A stretch of DNA of 64,000 nucleotides from Escherichia phage EcS1. The stretch's first letter is position 1, and the number at the start of each line of letters is the position of its first letter. The DNA is taken from the sequence record NC_055721.1. One strand, given 5' to 3'. A model generated the notes under the pieces. The model was not told where the DNA came from, searched no databases, and saw nothing but the letters and a program-made list of their open reading frames with translations. Position numbers and translations under genes: made by a program. Positions 1,616-56,304 of this stretch are shown here, piece after piece.

Positions 1616-1640
1616 GGGAGACTTCGGTCTCCCTTTCTTG
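1616..1640 (+). terminator. Rho-independent terminator after wac (GGGAGAC-TTCG-GTCTCCC + T-run)
   Basis: 7-bp GC stem, tetraloop, TTTCTT. Confidence 0.7.
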
Positions 1641-14655: not shown

Positions 14656-14671
14656 TACTTTAAAAAATTAT

Positions 14672-14697
14672 GGGAGACTTCGGTCTCCCATTTTTGT
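14672..14697 (+). terminator. Terminator after gene 23 (GGGAGAC-TTCG-GTCTCCC + ATTTTTGTTT)
   Basis: Hairpin plus T-run. Confidence 0.8.
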
Positions 14698-32913: not shown

Positions 32914-33108
32914 TTAAGCTGCAGATATTGGCAATAACGTACGATAGACTTCAAAATACGGTGCTTTTTCATATGAGTCTAAAGTGTTATCTCTGAATTC
33001 ACGATAAGCAGTCATATCAAAAAAATCAAGAATAATTTGAGAACAAGAGGTGGAAACATCTCCACCTTCTTTACGAGCGATAACAACTGTTTCTAAGTAA
33101 GCTTTCAT
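32914..33108 (-). CDS. Hypothetical small protein
   Basis: 64 aa ORF overlapping ligase stop by 4 nt. Confidence 0.35.
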   Translation of the reverse strand: MKAYLETVVIARKEGGDVSTSCSQIILDFFDMTAYREFRDNTLDSYEKAPYFEVYRTLLPISAA

Positions 33109-34619
33109 TTTATACCTGTTGTTTCAGTGAAATTACCAAACACTTCGTCAAAGGTATCAGCTTTAGTTTTATCAAAACGGAAGCCTTTAATAATCGGTAA
33201 GAAGATACCAACAGTACCATCTTTACGACCTTCAGACGTTACCCAACCATTACATTCGCAGTCAGCAATACGTCCTACTAATTTACCTTCACGAGCCAGT
33301 TTCATTAGATATTCACGGTCCATCTCGTTACGAGCTTCGATTGGAATATCTACCCAGTCTTTTGTCTTCTTATCACGAACTCTTGTTGTGTCAGTAAAAC
33401 CAGAACCACAATCAGATGTAATACGTCCACACGCAGAACGAAGACGAACACCACCTAATTTGTTAGGCTCTTTAGAGTGCTCATAGTAATCTACTATTTC
33501 AAGAGCAATATCAATTACTTCTTTGAACTTAACTAAGTTCTTAGAGCGCTTGTTTTCCCAATAAGAACCCATGTTCTTCAGGATAATACCTTCAAGCTTC
33601 ATATCTACATAACGTTTGTAGATTTTAGCTGCTTCGTCAAGATTATTAACCCAATGGTTCTCAATCAGAATAACAGAATCAAAGCCATGTAATACTAGAG
33701 CTTCATTAATCATTAACTCAAGAGCTTTGAAACGTACGTCGTATTTGAAGCCTTTAATCTGACCTTCAGAATAAACTTCATCAAGTGGAACAAGGTCCCA
33801 AACCTGGAACTTCATGCCAGCAGCTTCATCAGAAGTAATAGAACCCTTTAGAGATTTATTTGCTAGCCCATTAGAAGTACTACGGTCGACAACGGCTTCA
33901 TCTGTTTCTTCATCACCAAATAAGAAGTCAAGAGATGTGTCAGAAGATTTTTTAGCCGGAGCATGATAAACTAACTCACCATCTACCATTACGCCATTAG
34001 GATGTTTCAGGCGTTCGTCTTTAGTCATAATCATCAGCTCACGAGCAAGCTTATTAAGACCTTGATATTCATTACCTGCACGACTAAAGAAAGTGACACC
34101 TTCATCACGAACTTCAGCGAAACAACGCGCACCATCAGCTTTTAATTGAGCATAAGCAGGGAACTTGATATGCTTTTTAATGAGCTTTTCATCATAAGCT
34201 GAAGCCAACATTTGCGGCTGTTCTGGAATTAAATTCTTCCAGACTTTATTCGCAATAGTAGGACCAGCACCACATTCAAGGTCACGCATCATTACGCGCC
34301 GCAATACTTCTTCTTCGCCTGGTTCTTTAAATTGAATATCACTAATAAGCATACCCAATTGACGGATAGCTTCATGACCACTGAATACTCGAGTAGCTAA
34401 TTTAGTTTCAATGAAATCTAATGCGTCTGCTAAACTACGCGAGCCACGACATTCAATAACGTCAGGCCACTTTTTGATACCATAGTTGAATCGTTTAGAA
34501 TAAGCCATCAAGAATACACGACGCAAGAGGTCATTATCTTTATTTGCTTCAATGATAGCTTGTTTTTCTTTAGTTGAATCAGTTGCTTTAACTTTATTGA
34601 GGATTGCTAAAATACTCAT
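33105..34619 (-). CDS. 30: ATP-dependent DNA ligase gp30
   Basis: 504 aa; VMMRDLECGA, IPEQPQMLAS, FPAYAQLKADGARCFAEVR, EGIILKN, KFKEVIDV match recalled T4 ligase. Confidence 0.95.
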   Translation of the reverse strand: MSILAILNKVKATDSTKEKQAIIEANKDNDLLRRVFLMAYSKRFNYGIKKWPDVIECRGSRSLADALDFIETKLATRVFSGHEAIRQLGMLISDIQFKEPGEEEVLRRVMMRDLECGAGPTIANKVWKNLIPEQPQMLASAYDEKLIKKHIKFPAYAQLKADGARCFAEVRDEGVTFFSRAGNEYQGLNKLARELMIMTKDERLKHPNGVMVDGELVYHAPAKKSSDTSLDFLFGDEETDEAVVDRSTSNGLANKSLKGSITSDEAAGMKFQVWDLVPLDEVYSEGQIKGFKYDVRFKALELMINEALVLHGFDSVILIENHWVNNLDEAAKIYKRYVDMKLEGIILKNMGSYWENKRSKNLVKFKEVIDIALEIVDYYEHSKEPNKLGGVRLRSACGRITSDCGSGFTDTTRVRDKKTKDWVDIPIEARNEMDREYLMKLAREGKLVGRIADCECNGWVTSEGRKDGTVGIFLPIIKGFRFDKTKADTFDEVFGNFTETTGIK

Positions 34620-34845
34620 TAAATTCGTCCATCAGTTCGTTGAAGGTTTTGTGATATCTTACCATACCATCGATACTGCAAAGCCATAATTCATTCTGAG
34701 CTACACAGTCTTTGAATATTGGATTCGCCGAATTCGAGAATACATGGCTACCTGTTGCTCTTAAAAACTTAATAGGCGTTTGATAATATTCAGTTTCAAG
34801 AGTATCTTTTTGTAGACAATAATTATGAACGTTAAACATTACCAA
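34594..34845 (-). CDS. Hypothetical protein (30.1-like)
   Basis: 83 aa ORF. Confidence 0.45.
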   Translation of the reverse strand: MVMFNVHNYCLQKDTLETEYYQTPIKFLRATGSHVFSNSANPIFKDCVAQNELWLCSIDGMVRYHKTFNELMDEFNEYFSNPQ

Positions 34846-35678
34846 CGGTCCTTATCAAAAGTATAATGACATTTAAAGGGTCCAATTAATGGTTGAGCAA
34901 AGTCATGATCAACTATTTTAGGATGATTATTCATCCATTCAGCTCGGAGTATAGAATCACCTTTACCAACATAAGACTTTCTTGCTTCTTCCATGATACC
35001 CATTCTCAACATGGCATCTTCCATAGAACTCATGATATCCTTTACGGATTTAGAATTAAGTTCTTTAGCTAGATGTTCCCAATCATTAACAGCGTCATAA
35101 GATTTAAGATTAGGAGCAGTACGTTGACCACGTGGCATGTGATACGAAACAACATCAGTTCCTTCAAATACTTTAACTGCAGATTCGATATGTGAACCAA
35201 GATCGTCTACATAGCAAACAACACGATCACCATATTTTTCTTTTACTTTTTCAAGCAGAACATCTTTTGATTCGTTGAAGTCGCAAACCATGATGTCTTT
35301 AAATGCACCTGGGAACAATGCGTTCAAATTGAATTGTCTATTCAAATGAGCGTCAACACTATTGCCTAATGCAGTCACGGCCACAAAGTCGTATTCTTTC
35401 TTAAGTTCATTAACCCATTTCACAGCATCATCATATGGCGCCAAATAACGAATGAAATCTGAGTTGTTATATTTCAAAAGAAGTTTAACGGCAAACTCTT
35501 CATCACATCCGAAGATTTCACCAGGCGGAACAAACTTATCATCCACTAAAAAGTCTAAAATACCTTCAATAGGCAATTGATACTTCTGAGCGAAATAAGG
35601 CAGACCAGATTGCCATTTAACTAAGATGCCATCAACATCTGTAGCAATTACTTTACGTTCTTTTTTCTGAGTCAGCAC
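34839..35678 (-). CDS. HAD-superfamily-like hydrolase (30.2-like position)
   Basis: 279 aa; N-terminal ATDVDGIL resembles HAD motif I (DxDG), later VCYVDDL resembles motif IV. Confidence 0.55.
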   Translation of the reverse strand: MLTQKKERKVIATDVDGILVKWQSGLPYFAQKYQLPIEGILDFLVDDKFVPPGEIFGCDEEFAVKLLLKYNNSDFIRYLAPYDDAVKWVNELKKEYDFVAVTALGNSVDAHLNRQFNLNALFPGAFKDIMVCDFNESKDVLLEKVKEKYGDRVVCYVDDLGSHIESAVKVFEGTDVVSYHMPRGQRTAPNLKSYDAVNDWEHLAKELNSKSVKDIMSSMEDAMLRMGIMEEARKSYVGKGDSILRAEWMNNHPKIVDHDFAQPLIGPFKCHYTFDKDRW

Positions 35679-36022: not shown

Positions 36023-36218
36023 TTGCAGCCTTTAAAAGGGTTAATTCTGATTCCATGTGAACAGATTCAGTACCATCTGACCATGAAACTTCATATGCTG
36101 GTTCAACCTTGTATTTCAGGATTCCAGGTGTATACATTATAACCACACCCGGGATAAATCCTGAAATATGCTGAACTGGGGTTCCTAGTTCAAATTTCAC
36201 TTTATAACCTTGACCCAT
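35994..36218 (-). CDS. Hypothetical small protein
   Basis: ORF only. Confidence 0.45.
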   Translation of the reverse strand: MGQGYKVKFELGTPVQHISGFIPGVVIMYTPGILKYKVEPAYEVSWSDGTESVHMESELTLLKAANDDCYEPAC

Positions 36219-36364
36219 TCTGGGAATTCGATGAAATCAGGAGCGTCAATTTCACAAATCATCATACCTGCATTCACAGTAATATTACCTACTTCAATCA
36301 TAGGATTTGATTGAAGGCTTTGTGATAAGCGTTTTGCATCAGAAACTTGCACGAAAAGAATCAT
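36197..36364 (-). CDS. Small ORF (55 aa), start overlapping upstream stop (TAATG)
   Basis: Hand-translated MILFVQVSDAKRLSQSLQSNPMIEVGNITVNAGMMICEIDAPDFIEFPEWVKVIK; GGGGTGA RBS. Confidence 0.3.
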   Translation of the reverse strand: MILFVQVSDAKRLSQSLQSNPMIEVGNITVNAGMMICEIDAPDFIEFPEWVKVIK

Positions 36365-36813
36365 TATTTCACCCCATAAGAAACGAAAGCTTCGCCAGTC
36401 TTTTTGACCACAATAACTCGTACACCATCAGAAGCATTTCTGAGTTGACTTACCGCAAAGTCTTTAGCTTCTTGTTCAGTAAAAGGACCATTTGGTAGAG
36501 GCAGATTGCTTTTGCTTGTAGGAATAGTGATAGTCCAGAAATCTTGTTCAGTATCAACACGAATAAACTTCTTAGATATTTCATTCTGTAAGAACATACA
36601 CCAAACGTTGTCGAACTCGCCTTCATTTGCTTTGAAGGTGCCTTTATCAGTACGAACTGCAATGATGTTTCCATCCTTATCTAGTTCAGCAACTTCAAAC
36701 TCACCGAAACCTATTAAACGTTTCCATGCAGAAGCAAAGCCTGCACTACGGTCTTCCATGAATTGTTTACCAGCTTCAGTCCATTTGTAAACGATTTTTT
36801 CAGACGTCAACAT
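36364..36813 (-). CDS. Hypothetical protein (149 aa; start reassigned to MLTSEK after GAGGA RBS)
   Basis: ORF; the track N-terminus would run through an intercistronic hairpin, so internal ATG at 36813 preferred. Confidence 0.55.
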   Translation of the reverse strand: MLTSEKIVYKWTEAGKQFMEDRSAGFASAWKRLIGFGEFEVAELDKDGNIIAVRTDKGTFKANEGEFDNVWCMFLQNEISKKFIRVDTEQDFWTITIPTSKSNLPLPNGPFTEQEAKDFAVSQLRNASDGVRVIVVKKTGEAFVSYGVK

Positions 36814-36831
36814 AACAATTTCCTCAGAGTA

Positions 36832-36845
36832 GGGCCCGAAGGCCC
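36832..36845 (-). other. Intercistronic hairpin GGGCC-CGAA-GGCCC followed by GAGGA RBS module
   Basis: Same module as 37797-37813. Confidence 0.6.
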
Positions 36846-36853
36846 ATTTTAGA

Positions 36854-37216
36854 TTAGATAGTGAATTCAGATGAAACGATATCCCATAATGCTTCACGCT
36901 GCTCATCAGTAGTTTTCATACTTAACACATGACGCAACCATAACTTAACTAACATTTTGCGATTAGAACCGTTCCAAGATGGATGAGTACCTAAATCTCG
37001 AGTACGAACATCATCATGAAAACCAACTTTAATTACTGAACCTTTCAAAGAAACATCCAGCGTAATCCCGTTTTCGAAAGCAACATGAACATAGTTATCT
37101 TCCCAATACATGTTGATATCACACACTGTACCGTTTTCATGTTTCCATAAACATACAGTAGAAACATCCCATGCATTAGCTTTAACATATTTACGTTCGA
37201 AGTTTAAGTAGTTCAT
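36854..37216 (-). CDS. Hypothetical protein (about 120 aa; start reassigned downstream of promoter)
   Basis: ORF; promoter -10/-35 lie inside the track N-terminal extension. Confidence 0.5.
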   Translation of the reverse strand: MNYLNFERKYVKANAWDVSTVCLWKHENGTVCDINMYWEDNYVHVAFENGITLDVSLKGSVIKVGFHDDVRTRDLGTHPSWNGSNRKMLVKLWLRHVLSMKTTDEQREALWDIVSSEFTI

Positions 37217-37247
37217 TTTGTTATCCAAGTTTGCTGATTGAGTGTAC

Positions 37248-37276
37248 ATAATACCACACTCAATCAGCGTTGTAAA
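37248..37276 (-). promoter_or_regulatory. Sigma70-like early promoter (TTTACA-17-TATTAT) centred in a 13-bp perfect inverted repeat
   Basis: Hexamers on minus strand; IR arms 37233-37245 and 37256-37268. Confidence 0.45.
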
Positions 37277-37279
37277 CAC

Positions 37280-37783
37280 TTAGAACGAACTTTTTACTAC
37301 TTGTGGTTCTTTAACGAGTTTGAAACGAGAAATGCCTTTAAAAACAATAACTTCATCATAAGTATTTTCATGAAGCCATGCTGCAGCCCACTCTTCTGCT
37401 TGTTTTTCGCTCAAGTTTTTCGCACGAATCAAGAAATCGGTATCTTCTTCTCTAGCAACAAGACAACCATAGTCTAAATCTTCTAGAACTGGTTCAACTT
37501 CTTTTTCTGGCTCGTAGTCTTTAACTTCTGTGAAGTACTGGTATTCGTTTCCATAAATCCAGCAATCACCATACCCTTGTCTTGAGAACTGTCCAAGTTC
37601 ATCTAAACGATAAAGCTCTTTCTTACCATCAAAGCTGATTTTTAGAACATCAGTGTTATTAACTAGTTCAGTAATCATAAACGGTTTATTGCTGAGATAG
37701 TTTGCAACTGCAGTATTGATAGTAGGCGCTTCTTCAACAAATTCAGCCGCGTCAGCTAGTTTGTACCAGTGGTTTAATTCCAT
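37280..37783 (-). CDS. Hypothetical acidic protein
   Basis: 167 aa ORF with GAGGA RBS and upstream GC hairpin. Confidence 0.6.
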   Translation of the reverse strand: MELNHWYKLADAAEFVEEAPTINTAVANYLSNKPFMITELVNNTDVLKISFDGKKELYRLDELGQFSRQGYGDCWIYGNEYQYFTEVKDYEPEKEVEPVLEDLDYGCLVAREEDTDFLIRAKNLSEKQAEEWAAAWLHENTYDEVIVFKGISRFKLVKEPQVVKSSF

Positions 37784-37796
37784 AATTTCCTCAAAG

Positions 37797-37813
37797 TAGG
37801 GCCCGAAGGCCTA
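37797..37813 (-). other. Intercistronic hairpin (GGGCC-CGAA-GGCC) followed by GAGGA RBS module
   Basis: Same module as 36832-36845. Confidence 0.6.
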
Positions 37814-37817
37814 GTTA

Positions 37818-38171
37818 TTAAGCGATTGTGGTCCAGTTATCTAAATTGATAACACCTTTATCTTTCATTTGTTGAATCAATGCTTCAGCACGAGTACGAC
37901 CATTTTCATACCATGTGCAATCTTCATCATCATAAGTCTCAGAACGAATGCGACCTAAGATGACAGTTTTCAGAACATATTCTTCACCAGTAAACCAGTT
38001 AGTCAAACGAATTTTCCAAGAGAAATCATCTGACTGACCATCAGGAGTCATGCAATAAACCAGTTCAAATTGCTCCATAGATAATCCCCACTGAAGTTCT
38101 TTAACTGATTGAGCTTTGTAGCCATCATGATCTTTGCATTTGATGAAAGCGTTCAGATTAATAGTTTTCAT
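37818..38171 (-). CDS. Hypothetical protein (117 aa; start at MKTINL)
   Basis: ORF; GGAGA RBS; promoter TTTACT-16-TAAGAT upstream. Confidence 0.55.
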   Translation of the reverse strand: MKTINLNAFIKCKDHDGYKAQSVKELQWGLSMEQFELVYCMTPDGQSDDFSWKIRLTNWFTGEEYVLKTVILGRIRSETYDDEDCTWYENGRTRAEALIQQMKDKGVINLDNWTTIA

Positions 38172-38200
38172 TTTATTCTCCATTTGTTGATTGAGTGTAC

Positions 38201-38228
38201 ATCTTAACACAATCCTAGGAGAAGTAAA
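38201..38228 (-). promoter_or_regulatory. Sigma70-like early promoter (TTTACT-16-TAAGAT) sharing 15-bp -10 region with 37236-37250
   Basis: tgattgagtgtacat present at 37236-37250 and 38188-38202. Confidence 0.4.
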
Positions 38229-38232
38229 CACC

Positions 38233-38427
38233 TTATTTTACATGACTGAATTCTACATCAGACCAGATGCCGAAAGGCGGAAGATTAGGTTCTTCTTTAA
38301 AGGCTAACTTTTTGACATCAGTCCAAGGCCAACAGCAAACTTCGTGCTCGTATAACCAGCATGTTCCTTGCAAAGGACTCTCAGGATGCATTTCTATAAT
38401 TTTATAAACCAAAGTTTTCTTGAACAT
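38233..38427 (-). CDS. Hypothetical small protein (64 aa; start at MFKKTL)
   Basis: ORF; track N-terminal extension spans a terminator hairpin so internal start preferred. Confidence 0.45.
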   Translation of the reverse strand: MFKKTLVYKIIEMHPESPLQGTCWLYEHEVCCWPWTDVKKLAFKEEPNLPPFGIWSDVEFSHVK

Positions 38428-38439
38428 ATTCACCTCATA

Positions 38440-38470
38440 CAGATACAAAAATGGGAGACCGAAGTCTCCC
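38440..38470 (-). terminator. Minus-strand terminator (GGGAGAC-TTCG-GTCTCCC + ATTTTTGT) after small basic ORF
   Basis: Same 32-nt module as at 56268-56297. Confidence 0.75.
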
Positions 38471-38475
38471 ATAAC

Positions 38476-38655
38476 TTATGCTACAGCTCGCGGCTTTCCA
38501 AAACGAGAAGCATCGTCGCGTAACACGGCTCGTGCACGACGCATAATCTTCTCAACTGTCTGATTAATACGCTTGTTCGACCCACGCTTATATTTCGCGC
38601 GTTTAGAGGTACCAACTACTTCTTTAACTGCTTGTTTCTTAGCTTGCTTAGCCAT
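38476..38655 (-). CDS. Small highly basic protein (59 aa, 30.9-like position)
   Basis: Hand-translated MAKQAKKQAVKEVVGTSKRAKYKRGSNKRINQTVEKIMRRARAVLRDDASRFGKPRAVA; stop 5 nt before strong terminator hairpin. Confidence 0.4.
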   Translation of the reverse strand: MAKQAKKQAVKEVVGTSKRAKYKRGSNKRINQTVEKIMRRARAVLRDDASRFGKPRAVA

Positions 38656-38976
38656 TTTATTCTTCCAATCTTGGAGTAAAGTTAGCTCTATGACTTACGG
38701 TTTCCCTGCATAGAGCCGTTTTCTGTTTGGTCATTTCATGGCAGACCTACCAGAAGGTTTCGTTTATTTTACGTCTAGATAACCTACAACTACGACATCA
38801 TACTACTTCTATCTGTTGCACACCGTTAGCTGGCCATAGGCTGGGTCCGGGTCAGATTTCTCTGGGATAGAATATACATCAATGACTGTATAGGCCATGA
38901 GGTCACTCGGATTGTGAATCATTGTCCATCCGGTAACATGCCCTTGCCGTAATATGAACAAGTCCTCAAGGGGTAC

Positions 38977-39225
38977 TTATTTCAAAGTCACGATGAAGTG
39001 ACGGACTGCTTTACGAGCTGCAGAACACAATGGCTTAGCATATTTCAGTTCATCTTGAATAGCCAGTTCAGTAGCCAAAGCTTTCTGAGAAGGATTCAGA
39101 TGTTTGAAATATTCCAGGATGTCGAGAGCTTCAGCTTTAACATCAATGGAAGCACCATAGTTATCATGGCCTGCATTCCAGGATTTACGTTGGATGTCGA
39201 GAATAGATTTGATTAGTTCTTGCAT
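38977..39225 (-). CDS. rIII: rIII-like lysis-inhibition accessory protein (assigned by size and synteny only)
   Basis: 82 aa, same length as T4 rIII, immediately downstream of gene 31. Confidence 0.45.
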   Translation of the reverse strand: MQELIKSILDIQRKSWNAGHDNYGASIDVKAEALDILEYFKHLNPSQKALATELAIQDELKYAKPLCSAARKAVRHFIVTLK

Positions 39226-40600: not shown

Positions 40601-40944
40601 TAAATCACCAAGTAAGTTGAGCGTTTAGTAGAAACCAATTTTAGTCCTTCAATTGGTTCGACAATATTCTTTACAGTACCAATTGTGATGAATTCTGCAT
40701 CTTTAAAACGATTCTTTTTATCGTTAAAGACTGTACCCATGTATTGGTAACCTAATTCTACGCCATGATTGTTTACAGCAATCAATACTGCATCATATTC
40801 TTCATCAGGGACCATTGAGACTGCGTGGTCCATACGCAGTTCGGTTAACACTTCATCGATGCCTTTTTGAGATACTTCACCACGTATACCAATCAAGTTC
40901 GCACGAAGAATTTTATCAATCTTTTCTTTTAGCATATTGATCAA
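40600..40944 (-). CDS. Hypothetical protein downstream of DAHP synthase
   Basis: 114 aa ORF; overlaps DAHP synthase 3-prime end. Confidence 0.5.
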   Translation of the reverse strand: MINMLKEKIDKILRANLIGIRGEVSQKGIDEVLTELRMDHAVSMVPDEEYDAVLIAVNNHGVELGYQYMGTVFNDKKNRFKDAEFITIGTVKNIVEPIEGLKLVSTKRSTYLVI

Positions 40945-41926
40945 TCTCTGTTAGAGTTTTAACTGTTTGTTCCCAGCCGATGCAAGCATCAGTCACTGAA
41001 ACACCATACTTCATGTCACGAGAAATTTTCTGAGAACCTTCGTTCAGATGAGATTCTATCATAAAACCTTTAACTAATTGGAAACCTGCTTTCAATACTT
41101 CTTTAGCTACGCCTGGTTGACGCGTGAAGTCTTTTTCACTGTTCGAGTGTGAGCAGTCAACCATAACTGATTGGTTCACACCTGCGTGATACAGGTCGTC
41201 TAAGACATCAACAATATCGTCTTCATGATAGTTAGGACCCTTATCACCGCCACGTAGAACGATGTGAGTGTTCTTATTGCCTACGGCATGAACGATACCT
41301 ACGTTTCCGTTGTTATCCATACCTAAGTAACGGTGTGGGAACGCAGCAGATTTCATAGCATCAATAGCTACTTGAGCAGAACCATTTGTTCCATTCTTGA
41401 AGCCAACACACATAGGCAGACCTGAAGCGATTTCACGGTGTGTCTGTGATTCAGTCGTACGAGCGCCGATAGCAACCCATGAGAAAATACCACTAAGATA
41501 CTTAATCGTGAATGGGTCAAGCACTTCAGTCGCTAATGGAAGGCCAATATCTAAAAGGTCTAAACATAAACGACGAGCACAATGAAGACCATAGTTCAAG
41601 TCAAATGTGTCGTTCAAATGTGGGTCATTTACATAACCTTTCCAACCTACAGTCGTACGAGGCTTTTCAAAATAAACACGCATAACTAACAATACGTCAG
41701 GCAATTGTTTTTGCAATTCAGCCAGACGTTGGCCATATTCTAAAGCAGCTTTAGGGTCATGAATAGAACATGGACCCACTACAACAAGCTTACGATGGTT
41801 TTCGCCACACATAATGCGATTAACTTCTTCGCGATGTTTTTCTACTTGTTCTTTATGTCCTGCATGAAATGGAAGTTCACGAGCAAGTTCATTAGGCGAA
41901 TACAACTGTTCTACAACCAAATTCAT
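40916..41926 (-). CDS. 3-deoxy-D-arabino-heptulosonate-7-phosphate (DAHP) synthase, class I AroG/AroF/AroH-like
   Basis: 336 aa; collinear with recalled E. coli AroG: LVVVGPCSIHDP, LLVMRVYFEKPRTTVGWKG, NDPH, WVAIGARTTESQTHREIASGL, VGFKNGTNG, IVLRGG, VMVDCSHSNS, GFMIESHLNEG, SVTDACIGWE. Confidence 0.9.
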   Translation of the reverse strand: MNLVVEQLYSPNELARELPFHAGHKEQVEKHREEVNRIMCGENHRKLVVVGPCSIHDPKAALEYGQRLAELQKQLPDVLLVMRVYFEKPRTTVGWKGYVNDPHLNDTFDLNYGLHCARRLCLDLLDIGLPLATEVLDPFTIKYLSGIFSWVAIGARTTESQTHREIASGLPMCVGFKNGTNGSAQVAIDAMKSAAFPHRYLGMDNNGNVGIVHAVGNKNTHIVLRGGDKGPNYHEDDIVDVLDDLYHAGVNQSVMVDCSHSNSEKDFTRQPGVAKEVLKAGFQLVKGFMIESHLNEGSQKISRDMKYGVSVTDACIGWEQTVKTLTEIDQYAKRKD

Positions 41927-45847: not shown

Positions 45848-46341
45848 AATTTAACGATTGTCTCAAAGATATCGTCTTGAGTCATATTGTTGATAAGAAT
45901 ATGATGGGGTGAATCAGAAGCTGAAATCTTAAAGCAAGTTTCAACCATTGAAGCCATTTCGTCAGCAGTTAAACGAGAATGCTGGATTCCAAGACGATGA
46001 TTACCATAGATTGGGTCAACAATAATGTAACATTTGTTGCCACTCAGATGGACATTAGGCTGGCTGATGTTAATGAACACTTCAGCGCCATATTTACCCA
46101 ACTGGTTTTCAAGGAAGCTCTTCATTTCTTCTACTGCGTCAGGCATAGCATCACGACGAGCTTCAGTGACTTTGTTGTTGTATTCTTTTTGCTTTTTACG
46201 TTTAGAAAGATTACGTGCCATGGCAATACGAAGATCGGTGATGTAACCAATAGTCTTAGAACCTTTAAAGATACTGATTCCATCATGACGATCACCGTAT
46301 TGAGCCATAACCATTTCATTTGTAATAAGTTGCATATTCAT
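45835..46341 (-). CDS. Alc-like protein (assigned by size and synteny; start moved to ATG after GAGGA RBS)
   Basis: 168 aa from MNMQLIT; lies between rnlA and spanins where T4 has alc (167 aa); sequence itself not verified. Confidence 0.4.
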   Translation of the reverse strand: MNMQLITNEMVMAQYGDRHDGISIFKGSKTIGYITDLRIAMARNLSKRKKQKEYNNKVTEARRDAMPDAVEEMKSFLENQLGKYGAEVFINISQPNVHLSGNKCYIIVDPIYGNHRLGIQHSRLTADEMASMVETCFKISASDSPHHILINNMTQDDIFETIVKLCLL

Positions 46342-46370
46342 TTTAATATCCTCATTTTGTTGGTAGGAGA

Positions 46371-46399
46371 ATCTTATCACAACAAAATGAGGATGTAAA
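46371..46399 (-). promoter_or_regulatory. Sigma70-like early promoter (TTTACA-17-TAAGAT) inside 15-bp inverted repeat upstream of alc-like gene
   Basis: IR arms 46348-46362 and 46380-46394; downstream arm contains the GAGGA RBS. Confidence 0.5.
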
Positions 46400-47572
46400 C
46401 TACTCTTGTTCGATTACAATTTCTTTCTTATATTCGTCTGGAACGAAGAACTTGTGATTCTTGTTAAAAGCTTCGTTAAGCTGTGGAATTAACTTATCTA
46501 GGTCTAAACCACCTGTGAACGCTTTCATCAGAATTGGGAACAGATAAGAACGGTCTGCATCTTTAAAGATTGTTTGAGCAGAGATAGCGAAGTCTTTACG
46601 GTCACGACCAGCTAGTTGCTTATAAGTTGTTTGAACTAAGTCTAATGCATGACGCAAGAACTCTAAATGAATAGTTTCAAACTTATCAATCTTAGTGATA
46701 GCCCATTCATCGCCTGCGAACATAGAACGAAGGTCATCAGAACCACCAGACACGACAGATTCGAAGAGAGCTTCGTTTTTAGTGATGGAATCTTTAGTAC
46801 GATGCAAAGCAACATACCAATCAGTTTTGAGCTTAAAGTTCAAACCGTTTTCCATTACAAAAACATAACCTTCTACACCTTCTTTGGCGCGAATGCCAGG
46901 CACAAATCGTTCATCGGCAGGAACATTAAATGCTTCTACCAAATGAGGACGAAGCATTGCATCTTTAAACAATTCTTCATATGGAACATATTCACCAGTC
47001 TTATTTTCACGAACATTCAGAAGAATCAGGTCACGTTTACTATAAGCCAGAACGATACGGTTATCTGGTGCAACGTATTCCATGTTACAAGTGAAGCCAT
47101 CTTTAGTAAGTTGAGTCACACGTTTCAAGAATTTTTCATAACGTGGACCATTGATAACTTGTAGTGCTGCATAAGCTTGTTCAGAAGAAATAGAAGCCTT
47201 AGACTTCAAGAACAGTTGGTCGTTATCTACAAAGCTAGAGATTAGAGAACCATCAGCCTTATCCATCATCAATTTGATTTTAGTAAGGTCCAAGTTCATG
47301 GTAAATGGAGTTTCATCTAAGTTAAAGAATTTTTCCATCGGACGAGCTGCAATACGAGTAGGCTTACCATCGACCATTTCAAACATAATGCCGCGGCACT
47401 CTAGAGCGTCAGGCAGAAGCCAATCAGAGTAAGATGCATAGTTATAACTGAAGATACGATACTCACCACCAAACGGCGTCTGGTAGTCACGGAAATAGAA
47501 TTTAGACTGGTCTTTTGGGTCAGTCAATTTCATCAGGTTTTTGTACAAATCATGTTCTTGTTTAGTAATCAT
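46400..47572 (-). CDS. rnlA: RNA ligase 1
   Basis: 390 aa; YRIFSYNYASYSDWLLPDALECRGIMFEM, EKFFNL, KADGSL, RIVLAY, ILLNVRENKTGEY match recalled T4 Rnl1. Confidence 0.95.
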   Translation of the reverse strand: MITKQEHDLYKNLMKLTDPKDQSKFYFRDYQTPFGGEYRIFSYNYASYSDWLLPDALECRGIMFEMVDGKPTRIAARPMEKFFNLDETPFTMNLDLTKIKLMMDKADGSLISSFVDNDQLFLKSKASISSEQAYAALQVINGPRYEKFLKRVTQLTKDGFTCNMEYVAPDNRIVLAYSKRDLILLNVRENKTGEYVPYEELFKDAMLRPHLVEAFNVPADERFVPGIRAKEGVEGYVFVMENGLNFKLKTDWYVALHRTKDSITKNEALFESVVSGGSDDLRSMFAGDEWAITKIDKFETIHLEFLRHALDLVQTTYKQLAGRDRKDFAISAQTIFKDADRSYLFPILMKAFTGGLDLDKLIPQLNEAFNKNHKFFVPDEYKKEIVIEQE

Positions 47573-55635: not shown

Positions 55636-55974
55636 CTACTTATTGAAAGTCTTTTTGATCAATGCAATCATTTCTTCTGCATTGCCTTCGTAGACAGTCA
55701 AAGTTATCGACTCATCTTTTATTTTTTCAAAGTATTTGAATTCACCTTGTGCTAGTTCAAAGTAAGGGACAAAACCACCTGAACCTGCAACTTGCCCATT
55801 GGCAAACTCGATTTCATCTACATAAAGGTCATAATCACATTTACTAACATTTCGAACAGTGAACCAACCACCATTCTTATCGATCAAACGAACCATTTCA
55901 TTGTTACAATGAGCATTTTCCATGAAAGCTGAGGTGCACTCTTCTTTCAAGCGATATTTTTTATCAACTTGCAT
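55636..55974 (-). CDS. Hypothetical protein
   Basis: 112 aa ORF. Confidence 0.5.
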   Translation of the reverse strand: MQVDKKYRLKEECTSAFMENAHCNNEMVRLIDKNGGWFTVRNVSKCDYDLYVDEIEFANGQVAGSGGFVPYFELAQGEFKYFEKIKDESITLTVYEGNAEEMIALIKKTFNK

Positions 55975-56267: not shown

Positions 56268-56297
56268 AGATACAAAAATGGGAGACCGAAGTCTCCC
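56268..56297 (-). terminator. Gene 32 terminator (GGGAGAC-TTCG-GTCTCCC + ATTTTTGT)
   Basis: Hairpin 7 nt after gene 32 stop, T-run follows. Confidence 0.8.
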
Positions 56298-56304
56298 ATC
56301 ATTA

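What the first reader, a model, noticed from the sequence alone, without database searches (positions are those of the whole stretch)
36197..38472. Block of five or six unrecognised early genes, each with its own promoter or hairpin-RBS module
Between the 30.x ORFs and the rIII-like gene there are successive ORFs of 55, 149, 120, 167, 117 and 64 aa with no recognisable motifs. Each is preceded either by a GGGCC-CGAA-GGCCC hairpin plus GAGGA or by a sigma70-like promoter. Such densely regulated early accessory genes in T-even phages typically encode host-takeover or anti-defence factors, so this is the most plausible place for an undescribed early function.
Basis: inference. Interest (0 to 1): 0.45.

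Follow-up and report, generated by a model that had tools for sequence, protein, structure and literature searches.

The report
T4-type early accessory gene cluster
This is the local version of phage T4's small, non-essential early genes 30.4 to 30.8, with two extra fast-evolving paralogs, driven by standard T4-type promoters and hairpins; it is real and tidy but ordinary, and what the proteins do remains unknown.

Summary
The window comes from Escherichia phage EcS1, a T4-like phage. They are not unrecognised. Three match Pfam families: Gp30.7, Gp30.8 and DUF7428. The 64-aa ORF is a divergent relative of T4 30.4. The 149-aa and 167-aa proteins are distant paralogs of each other (hhalign 98%) with an FRD2-like N-terminal domain. 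No family has a known function.

The regulatory modules are also real, and they recur in nine related phages:
- A terminator follows 30.9.
- T4-type early promoters (GTTTAC-N17-TAnnnT) precede 30.8 and 30.7. The one before 30.7 sits inside a 14-bp stem-loop, like a PeSL.
- A C(UUCG)G hairpin lies 3-7 nt before an invariant UGAGGAAA Shine-Dalgarno sequence ahead of each paralog. Compensatory changes support its stem.

All of these are known kinds of T4 feature. The T4 orthologs are early at RNA and protein level. Nothing supports or excludes an anti-defence role. Verdict: new member of a known kind, low to moderate interest.

The most interesting result lies just outside the block, at 38800-38954. 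It is a roughly 146-nt structured RNA candidate between rIII and 30.9, strongly supported by covariation, absent from Rfam and absent from T4.

The parts
38451..38472 (-). Intrinsic-terminator-like hairpin AUGGGAGAC-UUCG-GUCUCCCAU followed by UUUUUG. It ends the rIII/30.9 unit and lies directly upstream of the 64-aa gene.
   Evidence: Terminator scan. Fold gives -19.6 kcal/mol, z -2.45. The same 22-mer recurs at 14670(+) and 56300(-). A hairpin plus U-run sits after 30.9 in all nine phages compared.
38233..38427 (-). 64-aa gene, a divergent member of the T4 30.4 family. It is an accessory cassette inserted between the 30.9 terminator and the 30.8 promoter.
   Evidence: phrog_22802 at 1e-5 and phrog_2042 at 3e-4. 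T4 30.4 scores 8e-35 against phrog_2042, and homologs in IME523 and CC31 link the two families. Found in 29 phage records at no more than 36% identity. In IME523 and PEi20 the homolog sits just after 30.7 instead.
38201..38229 (-). T4-type early promoter GTTTAC-N17-TAAGAT for gene 30.8, followed by the leader ACACUCAAUCAACAAAUGGAG. Its Shine-Dalgarno sequence is GGAG, the motif RegB cleaves in T4.
   Evidence: Nearly identical in Kc304/CHI14 and PEi20. T4 has GTTTACA-N17-TATTAT at the same junction.
37818..38171 (-). 117-aa ortholog of T4 gp30.8
   Evidence: Pfam Phage_30_8 at 1.7e-40, 138.2 bits against a 25-bit cutoff. 37% identical to T4 30.8 and 59-69% to relatives.
37781..37811 (-). Hairpin-RBS module: GGCC-UUCG-GGCC, then CUACUUUGAGGAAAUUAUG
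   Evidence: A hairpin occupies the same position in eight phages. Covariation was counted on 14 modules.
37280..37783 (-). 167-aa acidic two-domain protein (EcS1 gp220). It combines an FRD2-like N-terminal SH3-like domain with a C-terminal beta-beta-alpha-beta domain, and occupies the fast-evolving slot between 30.8 and 30.7.
   Evidence: Identical to KNT65_gp220. 23 representatives among 1.8 billion proteins. AF2 model pLDDT 93.5. phrog_24808 and phrog_5804. hhalign to the FRD2 protein gives 93%. 25-43% identity to relatives, with one or two copies per phage.
37233..37277 (-). PeSL-like early promoter for 30.7: GTTTACA (-35 hexamer at 37276-37271), 17-nt spacer, TATTAT (37253-37248). A 14-bp inverted repeat (37268-37255 and 37246-37233) brackets the -10 box.
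   Evidence: Promoter scan scores 10 of 12 with TG. Fold gives -27.4 kcal/mol, z -5.9. A stem-loop at the same place in eight phage groups has five unrelated stem sequences, z -3 to -6. 47 of 47 nt are identical to PEi20.
36854..37216 (-). 120-aa ortholog of T4 gp30.7
   Evidence: Pfam Phage_T4_Gp30_7 at 1.2e-59, 199.7 bits. 56% identical to T4 30.7. Present in 1012 phage records.
36811..36845 (-). Hairpin-RBS module: GGGCC-UUCG-GGCCC, then UACUCUGAGGAAAUUGUUAUG
   Evidence: T4 has GGGGC-UUCA-GCCCC plus UUACUGAGGAAAAUAUUAUG after 30.7. Covariation.
36364..36813 (-). 149-aa two-domain protein (EcS1 gp222), a distant paralog of the 167-aa protein
   Evidence: Identical to KNT65_gp222. phrog_8920 at 2e-39. 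hhalign of its family against the 167-aa family gives 98.2%, E 5e-14 over 146 columns. The AF2 model (pLDDT 85.8) has the same order of secondary-structure elements. Found in 60 phage records.
36197..36364 (-). 55-aa DUF7428 protein. Its start is coupled to the 149-aa gene by a TAATG overlap, and its end overlaps the start of the 30.5 ortholog.
   Evidence: Pfam DUF7428 at 8.7e-30. phrog_5769. Found in 194 phage records. It sits in the same position in eight of the nine phages compared (the six plus Kc304 and EcS1); T4 has none at this locus.

Best explanation
The block is phage EcS1's version of the T4 30.4-30.9 cluster of small, non-essential early genes. It lies in the variable region between the DNA ligase gene 30 and rIII.

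After the 30.9 terminator, the minus strand reads as follows:
1. A 30.4-like 64-aa gene.
2. An early promoter, then 30.8, then a C(UUCG)G hairpin plus GAGGAAA Shine-Dalgarno sequence, then the 167-aa paralog.
3. An early promoter embedded in a stem-loop, then 30.7, then the same hairpin plus Shine-Dalgarno module, then the 149-aa paralog.
4. The translationally coupled DUF7428 gene, then 30.5, and onward towards 30.2 and the ligase gene.

Shown: the genes, their family assignments, their synteny, and the conservation and covariation of the RNA elements.

Inferred: host sigma70 RNA polymerase starts transcription at the two promoters straight after infection. The stem-loop around the -10 box of the 30.7 promoter forms only in read-through RNA, where it acts as a barrier or attenuator. 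RNA started at the promoter itself carries only the 3' arm. The very stable tetraloop hairpin just before the exposed UGAGGAAA acts as a portable insulator. It protects the 3' end of the upstream cistron or the 5' end of the downstream one, and it keeps the ribosome-binding site unpaired. This gives the fast-evolving downstream paralog a translation start that does not depend on its sequence context.

The proteins are small, soluble and mostly acidic, with no catalytic signature. They most likely act early in infection by binding host or phage macromolecules. Their targets are unknown.
For: Identity. The 167-aa and 149-aa proteins are 100% identical to EcS1 gp220 and gp222.

Family assignment.
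- Pfam Gp30.7, Gp30.8 and DUF7428.
- blastp to T4 30.7 (56%), 30.8 (37%), 30.9 (89%) and 30.5 (37%).
- The 64-aa ORF links to T4 30.4 through phrog_2042.

Synteny. The order 30.9-30.8-[paralog(s)]-30.7-[paralog]-DUF7428-30.5-30.2 holds in Karamvirus, Kanagawavirus, Moonvirus, Winklervirus and a Klebsiella phage.

Expression. T4 30.4-30.8 are early RNA and early protein. T4 30.7 is an early mRNA cut by RegB.

Regulatory elements.
- The same element types sit at the same junctions in nine phages, T4 included.
- Hairpin stem: 95.7% of cells paired, 4 of 5 pairs with compensatory changes, 0 of 500 shuffles as good, and an invariant TGAGGAAA 3-7 nt downstream.
- Promoter stem-loop: z -3 to -6 in eight phage groups, with five unrelated stem sequences.
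- PeSL definition taken from PMC2839356 and PMC4122927. The UUCG tetraloop was first found in T4 mRNA (PMC4371310).

Paralogy and fold.
- hhalign 98.2% between the two families.
- Both AF2 models show the same two-domain topology.
- The N-terminal domain is related to a Pfam FRD2 protein elsewhere in the window.

Protein properties. None has a hydrophobic segment, and pI is 4.4-6.2.
Against: - No transcript data exist for EcS1, so promoter activity, start sites and the role of the hairpins are all inferred.
- The 30.8 promoter matches the sigma70 consensus at only 8 of 12 positions.
- The 30.7 Shine-Dalgarno sequence in EcS1 is weak (UUGGAUAAC rather than the GGAG seen in T4 and Kc304).
- The hairpins are short (4-5 bp) and do not stand out thermodynamically from shuffled sequence (z -0.8 and 0.05). 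Their support comes from position and covariation.
- The short pyrimidine-rich tract after each hairpin would also suit a weak terminator.
Confidence: 0.75

Rival explanations
1. One reading: one or more of these genes, most plausibly the fast-evolving 149/167-aa paralogs or the mobile 64-aa gene, is a host-takeover or anti-defence factor that binds and inactivates a host protein.
For: - The genes are of early type and lie in a variable region.
- The paralogs diverge much faster than their neighbours: 25-43% and 30-65% identity, against 65-77% for 30.7.
- Copy number in the slot between 30.8 and 30.7 varies from none (T4) to two.
- The 64-aa gene changes position between phages.
- These families are rare: 47, 60 and 29 phage records, against 1012 for 30.7.
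- The proteins are small and acidic with no enzymatic motif; the 167-aa protein carries a charge of -15.
- One homolog of the 149-aa protein is annotated 'putative peptidase inhibitor' by its depositor (H89).
Against: - No literature on these families.
- Fast evolution and early expression are typical of most T4 accessory genes, whatever they do.
Confidence: 0.3
2. The short GC hairpins before GAGGAAA are mainly transcription attenuators, that is, the terminator half of a PeSL-type cassette. They lower read-through into the distal paralog rather than stabilising mRNA or insulating the ribosome-binding site.
For: - PeSL stem-loops were shown to terminate transcription in a reporter (PMC2839356).
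- The hairpins sit at cistron ends and are followed by a pyrimidine/U-rich tract of 3-7 nt.
- The terminator scan picks up the 36832-36845 hairpin, though on the + strand.
Against: - No U-run follows the stem on the mRNA strand (UACUCUGAGG, CUACUUUGAGG).
- The stems are only 4-5 bp.
- The downstream gene has no promoter of its own, so efficient termination would silence a conserved gene.
- The invariant spacing to UGAGGAAA points to a link with translation.
Confidence: 0.25
3. [quoted passage not shown]
Against: - Unrelated small alpha/beta folds score the same (MzrA, CcmK, PII, CutA, designed miniproteins).
- The domain has one helix and three strands, fewer elements than ClpS.
- No sequence-level signal.
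Confidence: 0.07
4. Some of the ORFs, especially the 55-aa and 64-aa ones, are chance reading frames rather than genes.
For: They are very short, and the 64-aa ORF lies behind a terminator with no promoter of its own.
Against: - The 55-aa ORF passes the Pfam DUF7428 threshold and is found in 194 phage records at the same position.
- The 64-aa ORF has protein-level homologs in 29 records, with a conserved WPW...G(I/Y)W(S/T)D pattern even where its location differs.
- Both have a Shine-Dalgarno sequence or start-stop coupling.
Confidence: 0.03

Closest known systems
T4 genes 30.4-30.9, the non-essential early cluster between gene 30 and rIII
   Same: Position, strand and gene order are the same. 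Orthologs of 30.9, 30.8, 30.7 and 30.5 are present, with a divergent 30.4-like gene. The junction elements also match: a terminator after 30.9, early promoters before 30.8 and 30.7, and a hairpin plus GAGGAAA after 30.7.
   Different: EcS1 lacks T4 30.3 (Pfam Phage_30_3) and 30.6. It has three genes absent from the T4 locus (167 aa, 149 aa and the 55-aa DUF7428), and its 30.4-like gene sits between 30.9 and 30.8. The EcS1 30.7 Shine-Dalgarno sequence lacks the GGAG motif that RegB targets in T4.
PeSL cassettes (promoter-early stem-loops) of T4-type phages (Arbiol 2010, PMC2839356; Comeau 2014, PMC4122927)
   Same: An intergenic composite of a T4-type early promoter (TTTACW-N17-TAYWAT in T4/PST), a stem-loop overlapping the -10 box or lying next to it, and then a Shine-Dalgarno sequence and start codon. 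It lies in a variable region and flanks variable ORFs.
   Different: Promoter and terminator activity and mini-circle formation were not tested here. The hairpin plus Shine-Dalgarno modules have no promoter, so they are at most 'half' PeSLs.
C(UUCG)G tetraloop hairpins of T4 mRNA (Tuerk et al. 1988, as summarised in PMC4371310)
   Same: GC stem, C-G closing pair and UUCG loop, in an intercistronic position. There are 11 in this window against 0.7 expected.
   Different: What this comparison adds is the fixed placement 3-7 nt upstream of an invariant UGAGGAAA, ahead of members of one protein superfamily, across nine phages. Its function is untested.
Pfam FRD2 (PF03197, T4 Frd.2 family)
   Same: The N-terminal domain of the 167-aa family aligns to the window's FRD2 protein (55636-55974): profile hit 7e-9 and hhalign 93% over 83 columns.
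   Different: The 149-aa and 167-aa proteins do not hit the Pfam FRD2 model directly, and they carry an extra C-terminal beta-beta-alpha-beta domain. FRD2 itself has no known function.

Membership tests
Pfam Phage_T4_Gp30_7 (PF06919) | Full-length match above the gathering score of 27 bits | tested here: met
   120-aa ORF: 199.7 bits, E 1.2e-59, residues 1-119 on model positions 1-118 of 118. 56% identical to T4 30.7.
Pfam Phage_30_8 (PF06019) | Full-length match above the gathering score of 25 bits | tested here: met
   117-aa ORF: 138.2 bits, E 1.7e-40, model positions 1-123 of 124. 37% identical to T4 30.8.
Pfam DUF7428 (PF24204) | Full-length match above the gathering score of 27 bits | tested here: met
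   55-aa ORF: 102.7 bits, E 8.7e-30, model positions 1-55 of 55.
T4 30.4 family (phrog_2042) | Significant profile match to the family that holds T4 30.4 | tested here: inconclusive
   The 64-aa ORF scores only 3.3e-4, and blastp to T4 30.4 gives 0.008 in a small database. Its homolog in IME523 scores 1.3e-12 and T4 30.4 scores 7.7e-35 against the same profile.
Pfam FRD2 (PF03197) | Match to the Pfam model above its gathering score | tested here: not met
   Neither the 149-aa nor the 167-aa protein hits FRD2 at E<=0.1. The only link is a remote profile-to-sequence match for the N-terminal domain (hhalign 93%).
PeSL (promoter-early stem-loop) cassette | Sigma70-like early promoter with a T4-type -35 (TTTACW) and -10 (TAYWAT) at 17-nt spacing | tested here: met
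   TTTACA-17-TATTAT at 37276-37248. GTTTAC-17-TAAGAT at 38229-38201, where the -10 departs from the consensus.
PeSL (promoter-early stem-loop) cassette | Stable stem-loop next to or overlapping the promoter, with a Shine-Dalgarno sequence and start codon at the 3' end, in a variable intergenic position | tested here: met
   A 14-bp stem brackets the -10 box of the 30.7 promoter, -27.4 kcal/mol, z -5.9. It is conserved as a structure with five different stem sequences. At the 30.8 promoter the stem is degenerate (z -0.67).
PeSL (promoter-early stem-loop) cassette | Demonstrated promoter and terminator activity, and recombination between cassettes | not testable with these tools
   Indirect evidence only. 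The EcS1 cassette is 47 of 47 nt identical to PEi20, while the flanking proteins are 43-65% identical. The 64-aa gene changes junction between phages.
C(UUCG)G tetraloop hairpin | UUCG loop closed by a C-G pair on a GC-rich stem | tested here: met
   Hairpins at 36845-36832 (5 bp), 37811-37800 (4 bp) and 38472-38451 (9 bp). The stem is supported by compensatory changes.
Rho-independent terminator | GC-rich stem followed immediately by a U-run | tested here: met
   Met only for 38472-38451 (UUUUUG). Not met for the two hairpins before GAGGAAA, where UACUCU and CUACUUU follow the stem.
ClpS adaptor family | Clear structural or sequence similarity to ClpS | tested here: not met
Known anti-defence or host-takeover proteins | Homology to a characterised inhibitor, or an experimental phenotype | not testable with these tools
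   No dedicated anti-defence library was available. PADLOC, which holds defence-system models, gave nothing. The PDB, BFVD and literature searches found no characterised relative.

The most novel reading that the evidence does not exclude
The hairpin plus UGAGGAAA module together with a two-domain FRD2-like gene forms a portable expression cassette. It has been duplicated and swapped at the junctions on either side of gene 30.7, giving no copies in T4 and up to three elsewhere. The paralogs it carries would then be a diversifying family of early host-binding, possibly anti-defence, proteins whose targets differ between host genera.
Probability: 0.25. Interest if true: 0.5.

Novelty: new member of a known kind. 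Interest (0 to 1): 0.27.

Why it matters
As a gene block it matters little. It is one more version of a well-known variable region of T4-like phages, and its proteins remain of unknown function.

Two results are useful to specialists:
- The 149-aa and 167-aa ORFs, which looked unrelated, join one two-domain superfamily linked to T4 Frd.2. It now has high-confidence models (pLDDT 93.5 and 85.8) and a clear pattern of fast divergence and copy-number change, which makes it a sensible target for deletion and pull-down screens.
- The tetraloop hairpin placed 3-7 nt before an invariant UGAGGAAA, and the promoter embedded in a stem-loop whose sequence varies but whose structure is kept, are conserved from T4 to EcS1. 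This gives a testable model of how these phages insulate and time the expression of swapped-in genes.

The structured RNA candidate noticed next to the block may matter more than the block itself.

Tried and rejected
- Sequence searches of the PDB for the 149, 167, 120 and 117-aa proteins gave nothing meaningful.
- NCBIfam and PADLOC gave nothing.
- The word-indexed protein search found only one or two relatives for the 167-aa and 149-aa proteins. The exhaustive search and tblastn were needed instead.
- BFVD returned only uncharacterised phage proteins.
- The afdb50 library was unavailable.
- Rfam found no family in the block, and there are no tRNAs.
- Base composition is unremarkable, so nothing suggests recent foreign origin.
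- MotA-box middle promoters: only weak intragenic matches inside the block.
- Literature searches for gp30.7, gp30.8 and DUF7428 returned nothing relevant.
- The MAFFT alignment of the promoter stem-loops (A3) put the stems out of register, so I replaced pair counting there with folding each sequence separately.
- I did not scan the whole T4 genome for further members of the paralog superfamily.


Full report
**Source and layout.** The 167-aa and 149-aa proteins are 100% identical to KNT65_gp220 and gp222 of Escherichia phage EcS1, a 175,437-bp genome. The closest records in the phage collection are Winklervirus and other Tevenvirinae at about 77% nucleotide identity. All genes in this part of the window lie on the minus strand. 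In coordinate order they are:
- DNA ligase gp30 (33105-34619) and a 30.2 ortholog (34839-35678);
- small ORFs of 80, 66 and 74 aa, the last being the 30.5 ortholog;
- the six ORFs of the finding;
- a 59-aa 30.9 ortholog (38476-38655);
- a 321-nt spacer, then rIII (38977-39225) and gp31.

**Observation.** They are not without recognisable motifs:
- Pfam assigns the 55-aa ORF to DUF7428 (102.7 bits), the 120-aa ORF to Gp30.7 (199.7 bits) and the 117-aa ORF to Gp30.8 (138.2 bits).
- All six hit PHROG families of unknown function.
- blastp against the T4 locus gives 30.7 at 56%, 30.8 at 37%, 30.9 at 89% and 30.5 at 37% identity.
- The 64-aa ORF is a divergent relative of T4 30.4. It scores weakly against phrog_2042, which T4 30.4 matches at 8e-35, and homologs in other phages bridge the gap.
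- The 167, 149 and 55-aa genes have no counterpart in the T4 locus. T4 30.3 and 30.6 are missing from EcS1.

**Synteny.** The order is conserved in Karamvirus CC31, Kanagawavirus IME523 and PEi20, Moonvirus Moon, Winklervirus CHI14 and Kc304, and a Klebsiella phage. It reads 30.9, 30.8, one or two members of the 167-aa family, 30.7, a member of the 149-aa family, DUF7428, 30.5, 30.2. CC31 has the same arrangement as EcS1, including the 64-aa gene between 30.9 and 30.8. In IME523 and PEi20 that gene lies directly after 30.7 instead.

The scaffold genes are well conserved: 30.7 at 65-77% identity and 30.8 at 59-69%. The slot genes are not: the 167-aa family at 25-43%, the 149-aa family at 30-65% and the 64-aa family at 30-36%. 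tblastn against 50,697 phage records finds 30.7 in 1012, DUF7428 in 194, the 149-aa protein in 60, the 167-aa protein in 47 and the 64-aa protein in 29.

**The two large unassigned proteins.** An exhaustive search found 23 representative relatives of the 167-aa protein among 1.8 billion proteins. The resulting AlphaFold model is confident (pLDDT 93.5) and has two domains joined by an acidic linker. The 149-aa protein, modelled from seven homologs (pLDDT 85.8), shows the same order of strands and helices. Profile-profile comparison gives 98.2% probability, E 5e-14, over 146 columns, so the two are distant paralogs flanking gene 30.7.

The profile of the 167-aa family also finds a 112-aa protein elsewhere in the window (55636-55974). 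That protein is Pfam FRD2, the T4 Frd.2 family, and hhalign relates it to the N-terminal domain at 93%.

**Regulatory modules.** This element was first described in T4 mRNA (PMC4371310). GGCCTTCGGGCC occurs twice in 64 kb against 0.03 expected. Both copies are followed by CUACUnUGAGGAAAUU..AUG, and each precedes one of the paralogs. The 64-aa gene is preceded by something different, a 9-bp UUCG hairpin with a U-run that terminates 30.9. The 55-aa gene has no module and is translationally coupled.

The promoter before 30.7 is TTTACA-17-TATTAT with a TG extension. The one before 30.8 is GTTTAC-17-TAAGAT. Window-wide, C(UUCG)G hairpins number 11 against 0.7 expected. GTTTAC-N17-19-TAnnnT motifs number 8 against 2.6 expected. 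These are therefore genome-wide features of the phage, concentrated in this block but not unique to it.

**Comparison of the junctions in nine phages**.
- Every phage has a hairpin plus U-run after 30.9 and an early promoter before 30.8.
- Every phage that has a gene in the slot after 30.8 has a short GC hairpin followed by GAGGAAA at that junction.
- Every phage has an early promoter inside a stem-loop before 30.7.
- The seven phages with a spacer after 30.7 have a short GC hairpin followed by GAGGAAA there. IME523 and PEi20, where the 64-aa gene abuts 30.7, do not.
- T4 has GGGGC-UUCA-GCCCC plus UUACUGAGGAAAAUAUUAUG after 30.7, although the gene downstream is 30.6, not a paralog.

An alignment of 14 hairpin modules shows an invariant TGAGGAAA 3-7 nt after the stem. 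In the stem, 95.7% of cells are paired and 4 of 5 pairs carry compensatory changes. No shuffle in 500 reaches that score, and slid controls give 16-71% paired.

The stem-loop around the -10 box of the 30.7 promoter has z-scores of -3 to -6 in all eight phage groups, with five unrelated stem sequences. In CC31 and Moon, and at another EcS1 promoter near 46400, the 3' arm contains the Shine-Dalgarno sequence. Read-through RNA would then hide the ribosome-binding site, while RNA started at the promoter would not.

This arrangement matches the published description of PeSL cassettes: an early promoter, a stem-loop overlapping or next to it, and a Shine-Dalgarno sequence with start codon, found in variable regions and thought to mediate modular shuffling (PMC2839356, PMC4122927). 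The EcS1 cassette before 30.7 is 47 of 47 nt identical to that of PEi20, although the flanking proteins are only 43-65% identical.

**Timing.** T4 30.4-30.8 are classed early at both RNA and protein level (PMC9697503 supplements). T4 30.7 mRNA is an early transcript cut by RegB at the GGAG of its Shine-Dalgarno sequence (PMC9409239). In EcS1 the 30.8 leader keeps GGAG, but the 30.7 leader has UUGGAUAAC instead. The paralogs use GAGGAAA, which does not contain GGAG.

**Interpretation.** I read the block as two short early units nested in a longer read-through unit that runs towards the ligase gene. Each unit is a promoter, a conserved gene (30.8 or 30.7), a tetraloop hairpin with an exposed strong Shine-Dalgarno sequence, and a fast-evolving paralog.

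The roles I assign to the RNA elements are inferred, not shown. The hairpin would insulate or stabilise and keep the ribosome-binding site open. The promoter stem-loop would act only on read-through RNA. A weak-terminator role for the hairpins is the main rival.

For the proteins I commit only to small, non-enzymatic binding proteins made early in infection. An anti-defence or takeover role is possible (about 0.3 for at least one gene) but has no direct support.

**Verdict.** The block is a new member of a known kind.

**Outside the block.** The 321-nt spacer between rIII and 30.9 contains a sharply bounded element at 38800-38954 on the minus strand.
- Distribution: blastn finds the rIII-proximal part of the spacer that holds it in 404 T4-like phage records, mostly unannotated.
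- Presence and absence: it is present in the Tequatrovirus SA21RB but precisely absent from T4 between identical flanks. It is also absent from Kc304 and CC31 and from CHI14, where the covariance model finds no copy.
- Structure: RNAalifold predicts eight helices.
- Placement: a covariance model finds one copy in each of 24 loci, the window included (114 bits). In the window, the annotated loci and all 13 viral contigs where both genes lie within the fetched stretch, it sits between rIII and 30.9 on the gene-sense strand.
- Covariation: on that alignment 98% of cells pair and 15 of 44 pairs show compensatory changes. No shuffle in 500 matches this, and slid controls give 22-40%. The alignment was fitted to the model, which favours the structure somewhat.
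- Strand: frequent G-U pairs point to the sense strand.
- Negative results: no Rfam 15 family matches it, it is not a tRNA, and it has no match in E. coli genomes.

It looks like an undescribed structured RNA of T4-like phages and deserves its own follow-up.

Noticed in passing
window 38800-38954 (- strand), within the rIII-30.9 spacer 38656-38976: A candidate structured RNA of about 146 nt. Eight helices are predicted, with 98% of cells paired and 15 of 44 pairs showing compensatory changes (0 of 500 shuffles as good). There is one copy per genome, found between rIII and 30.9 on the sense strand at every locus where both genes could be located. The stretch of the spacer that holds it matches 404 T4-like phage records. 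It is precisely absent from T4, Kc304/CHI14 and CC31. It has no Rfam 15 match, no match in E. coli genomes and no conserved reading frame. Function unknown.
   Followed up: yes
window 55636-55974 (- strand): A 112-aa Pfam FRD2 protein (T4 Frd.2 family) downstream of gene 32. It is a remote relative of the N-terminal domain of the 149/167-aa paralogs. It lies in a unit that begins with a terminator (56300-56277) followed directly by an early promoter (56267).
   Followed up: partly
window 46330-46400 (- strand): An early promoter, GTTTACA-N17-TAAGAT, inside a stem-loop whose 3' arm contains the downstream GAGGA Shine-Dalgarno sequence (z -3.8). Read-through RNA would mask the ribosome-binding site, while RNA started at the promoter would not.
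   Followed up: partly
window 14670-14691 (+), 38451-38472 (-), 56277-56300 (-); related copy at 1616-1633 (+): The same terminator hairpin, ATGGGAGAC-TTCG-GTCTCCCAT followed by a T-run, is reused at three or more places. It is also identical after 30.9 in Kc304 and CHI14.
   Followed up: no
window 40916-41926 (- strand): A 336-aa ORF resembling DAHP synthase (3-deoxy-7-phosphoheptulonate synthase), encoded by the phage upstream of the cd (dCMP deaminase) gene and the ORF next to it. The matching gene is annotated as such in Kc304 and PEi20, and T4 has none at this locus.
   Followed up: no
window 38476-38655 (- strand): The 30.9 ortholog is a 59-aa, extremely basic protein (pI 11.7, charge +14.5). 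Its C-terminal 44 residues are 89% identical to T4 30.9, far better conserved than its neighbours. It lies directly downstream of the RNA candidate.
   Followed up: no
window 37235-37247 and 38188-38200 (- strand): Both early promoters in the block are followed by the same 13-nt initial transcribed sequence, GUACACUCAAUCA, continuing (G/A)CAAA. The two leaders therefore share a 5' end.
   Followed up: no
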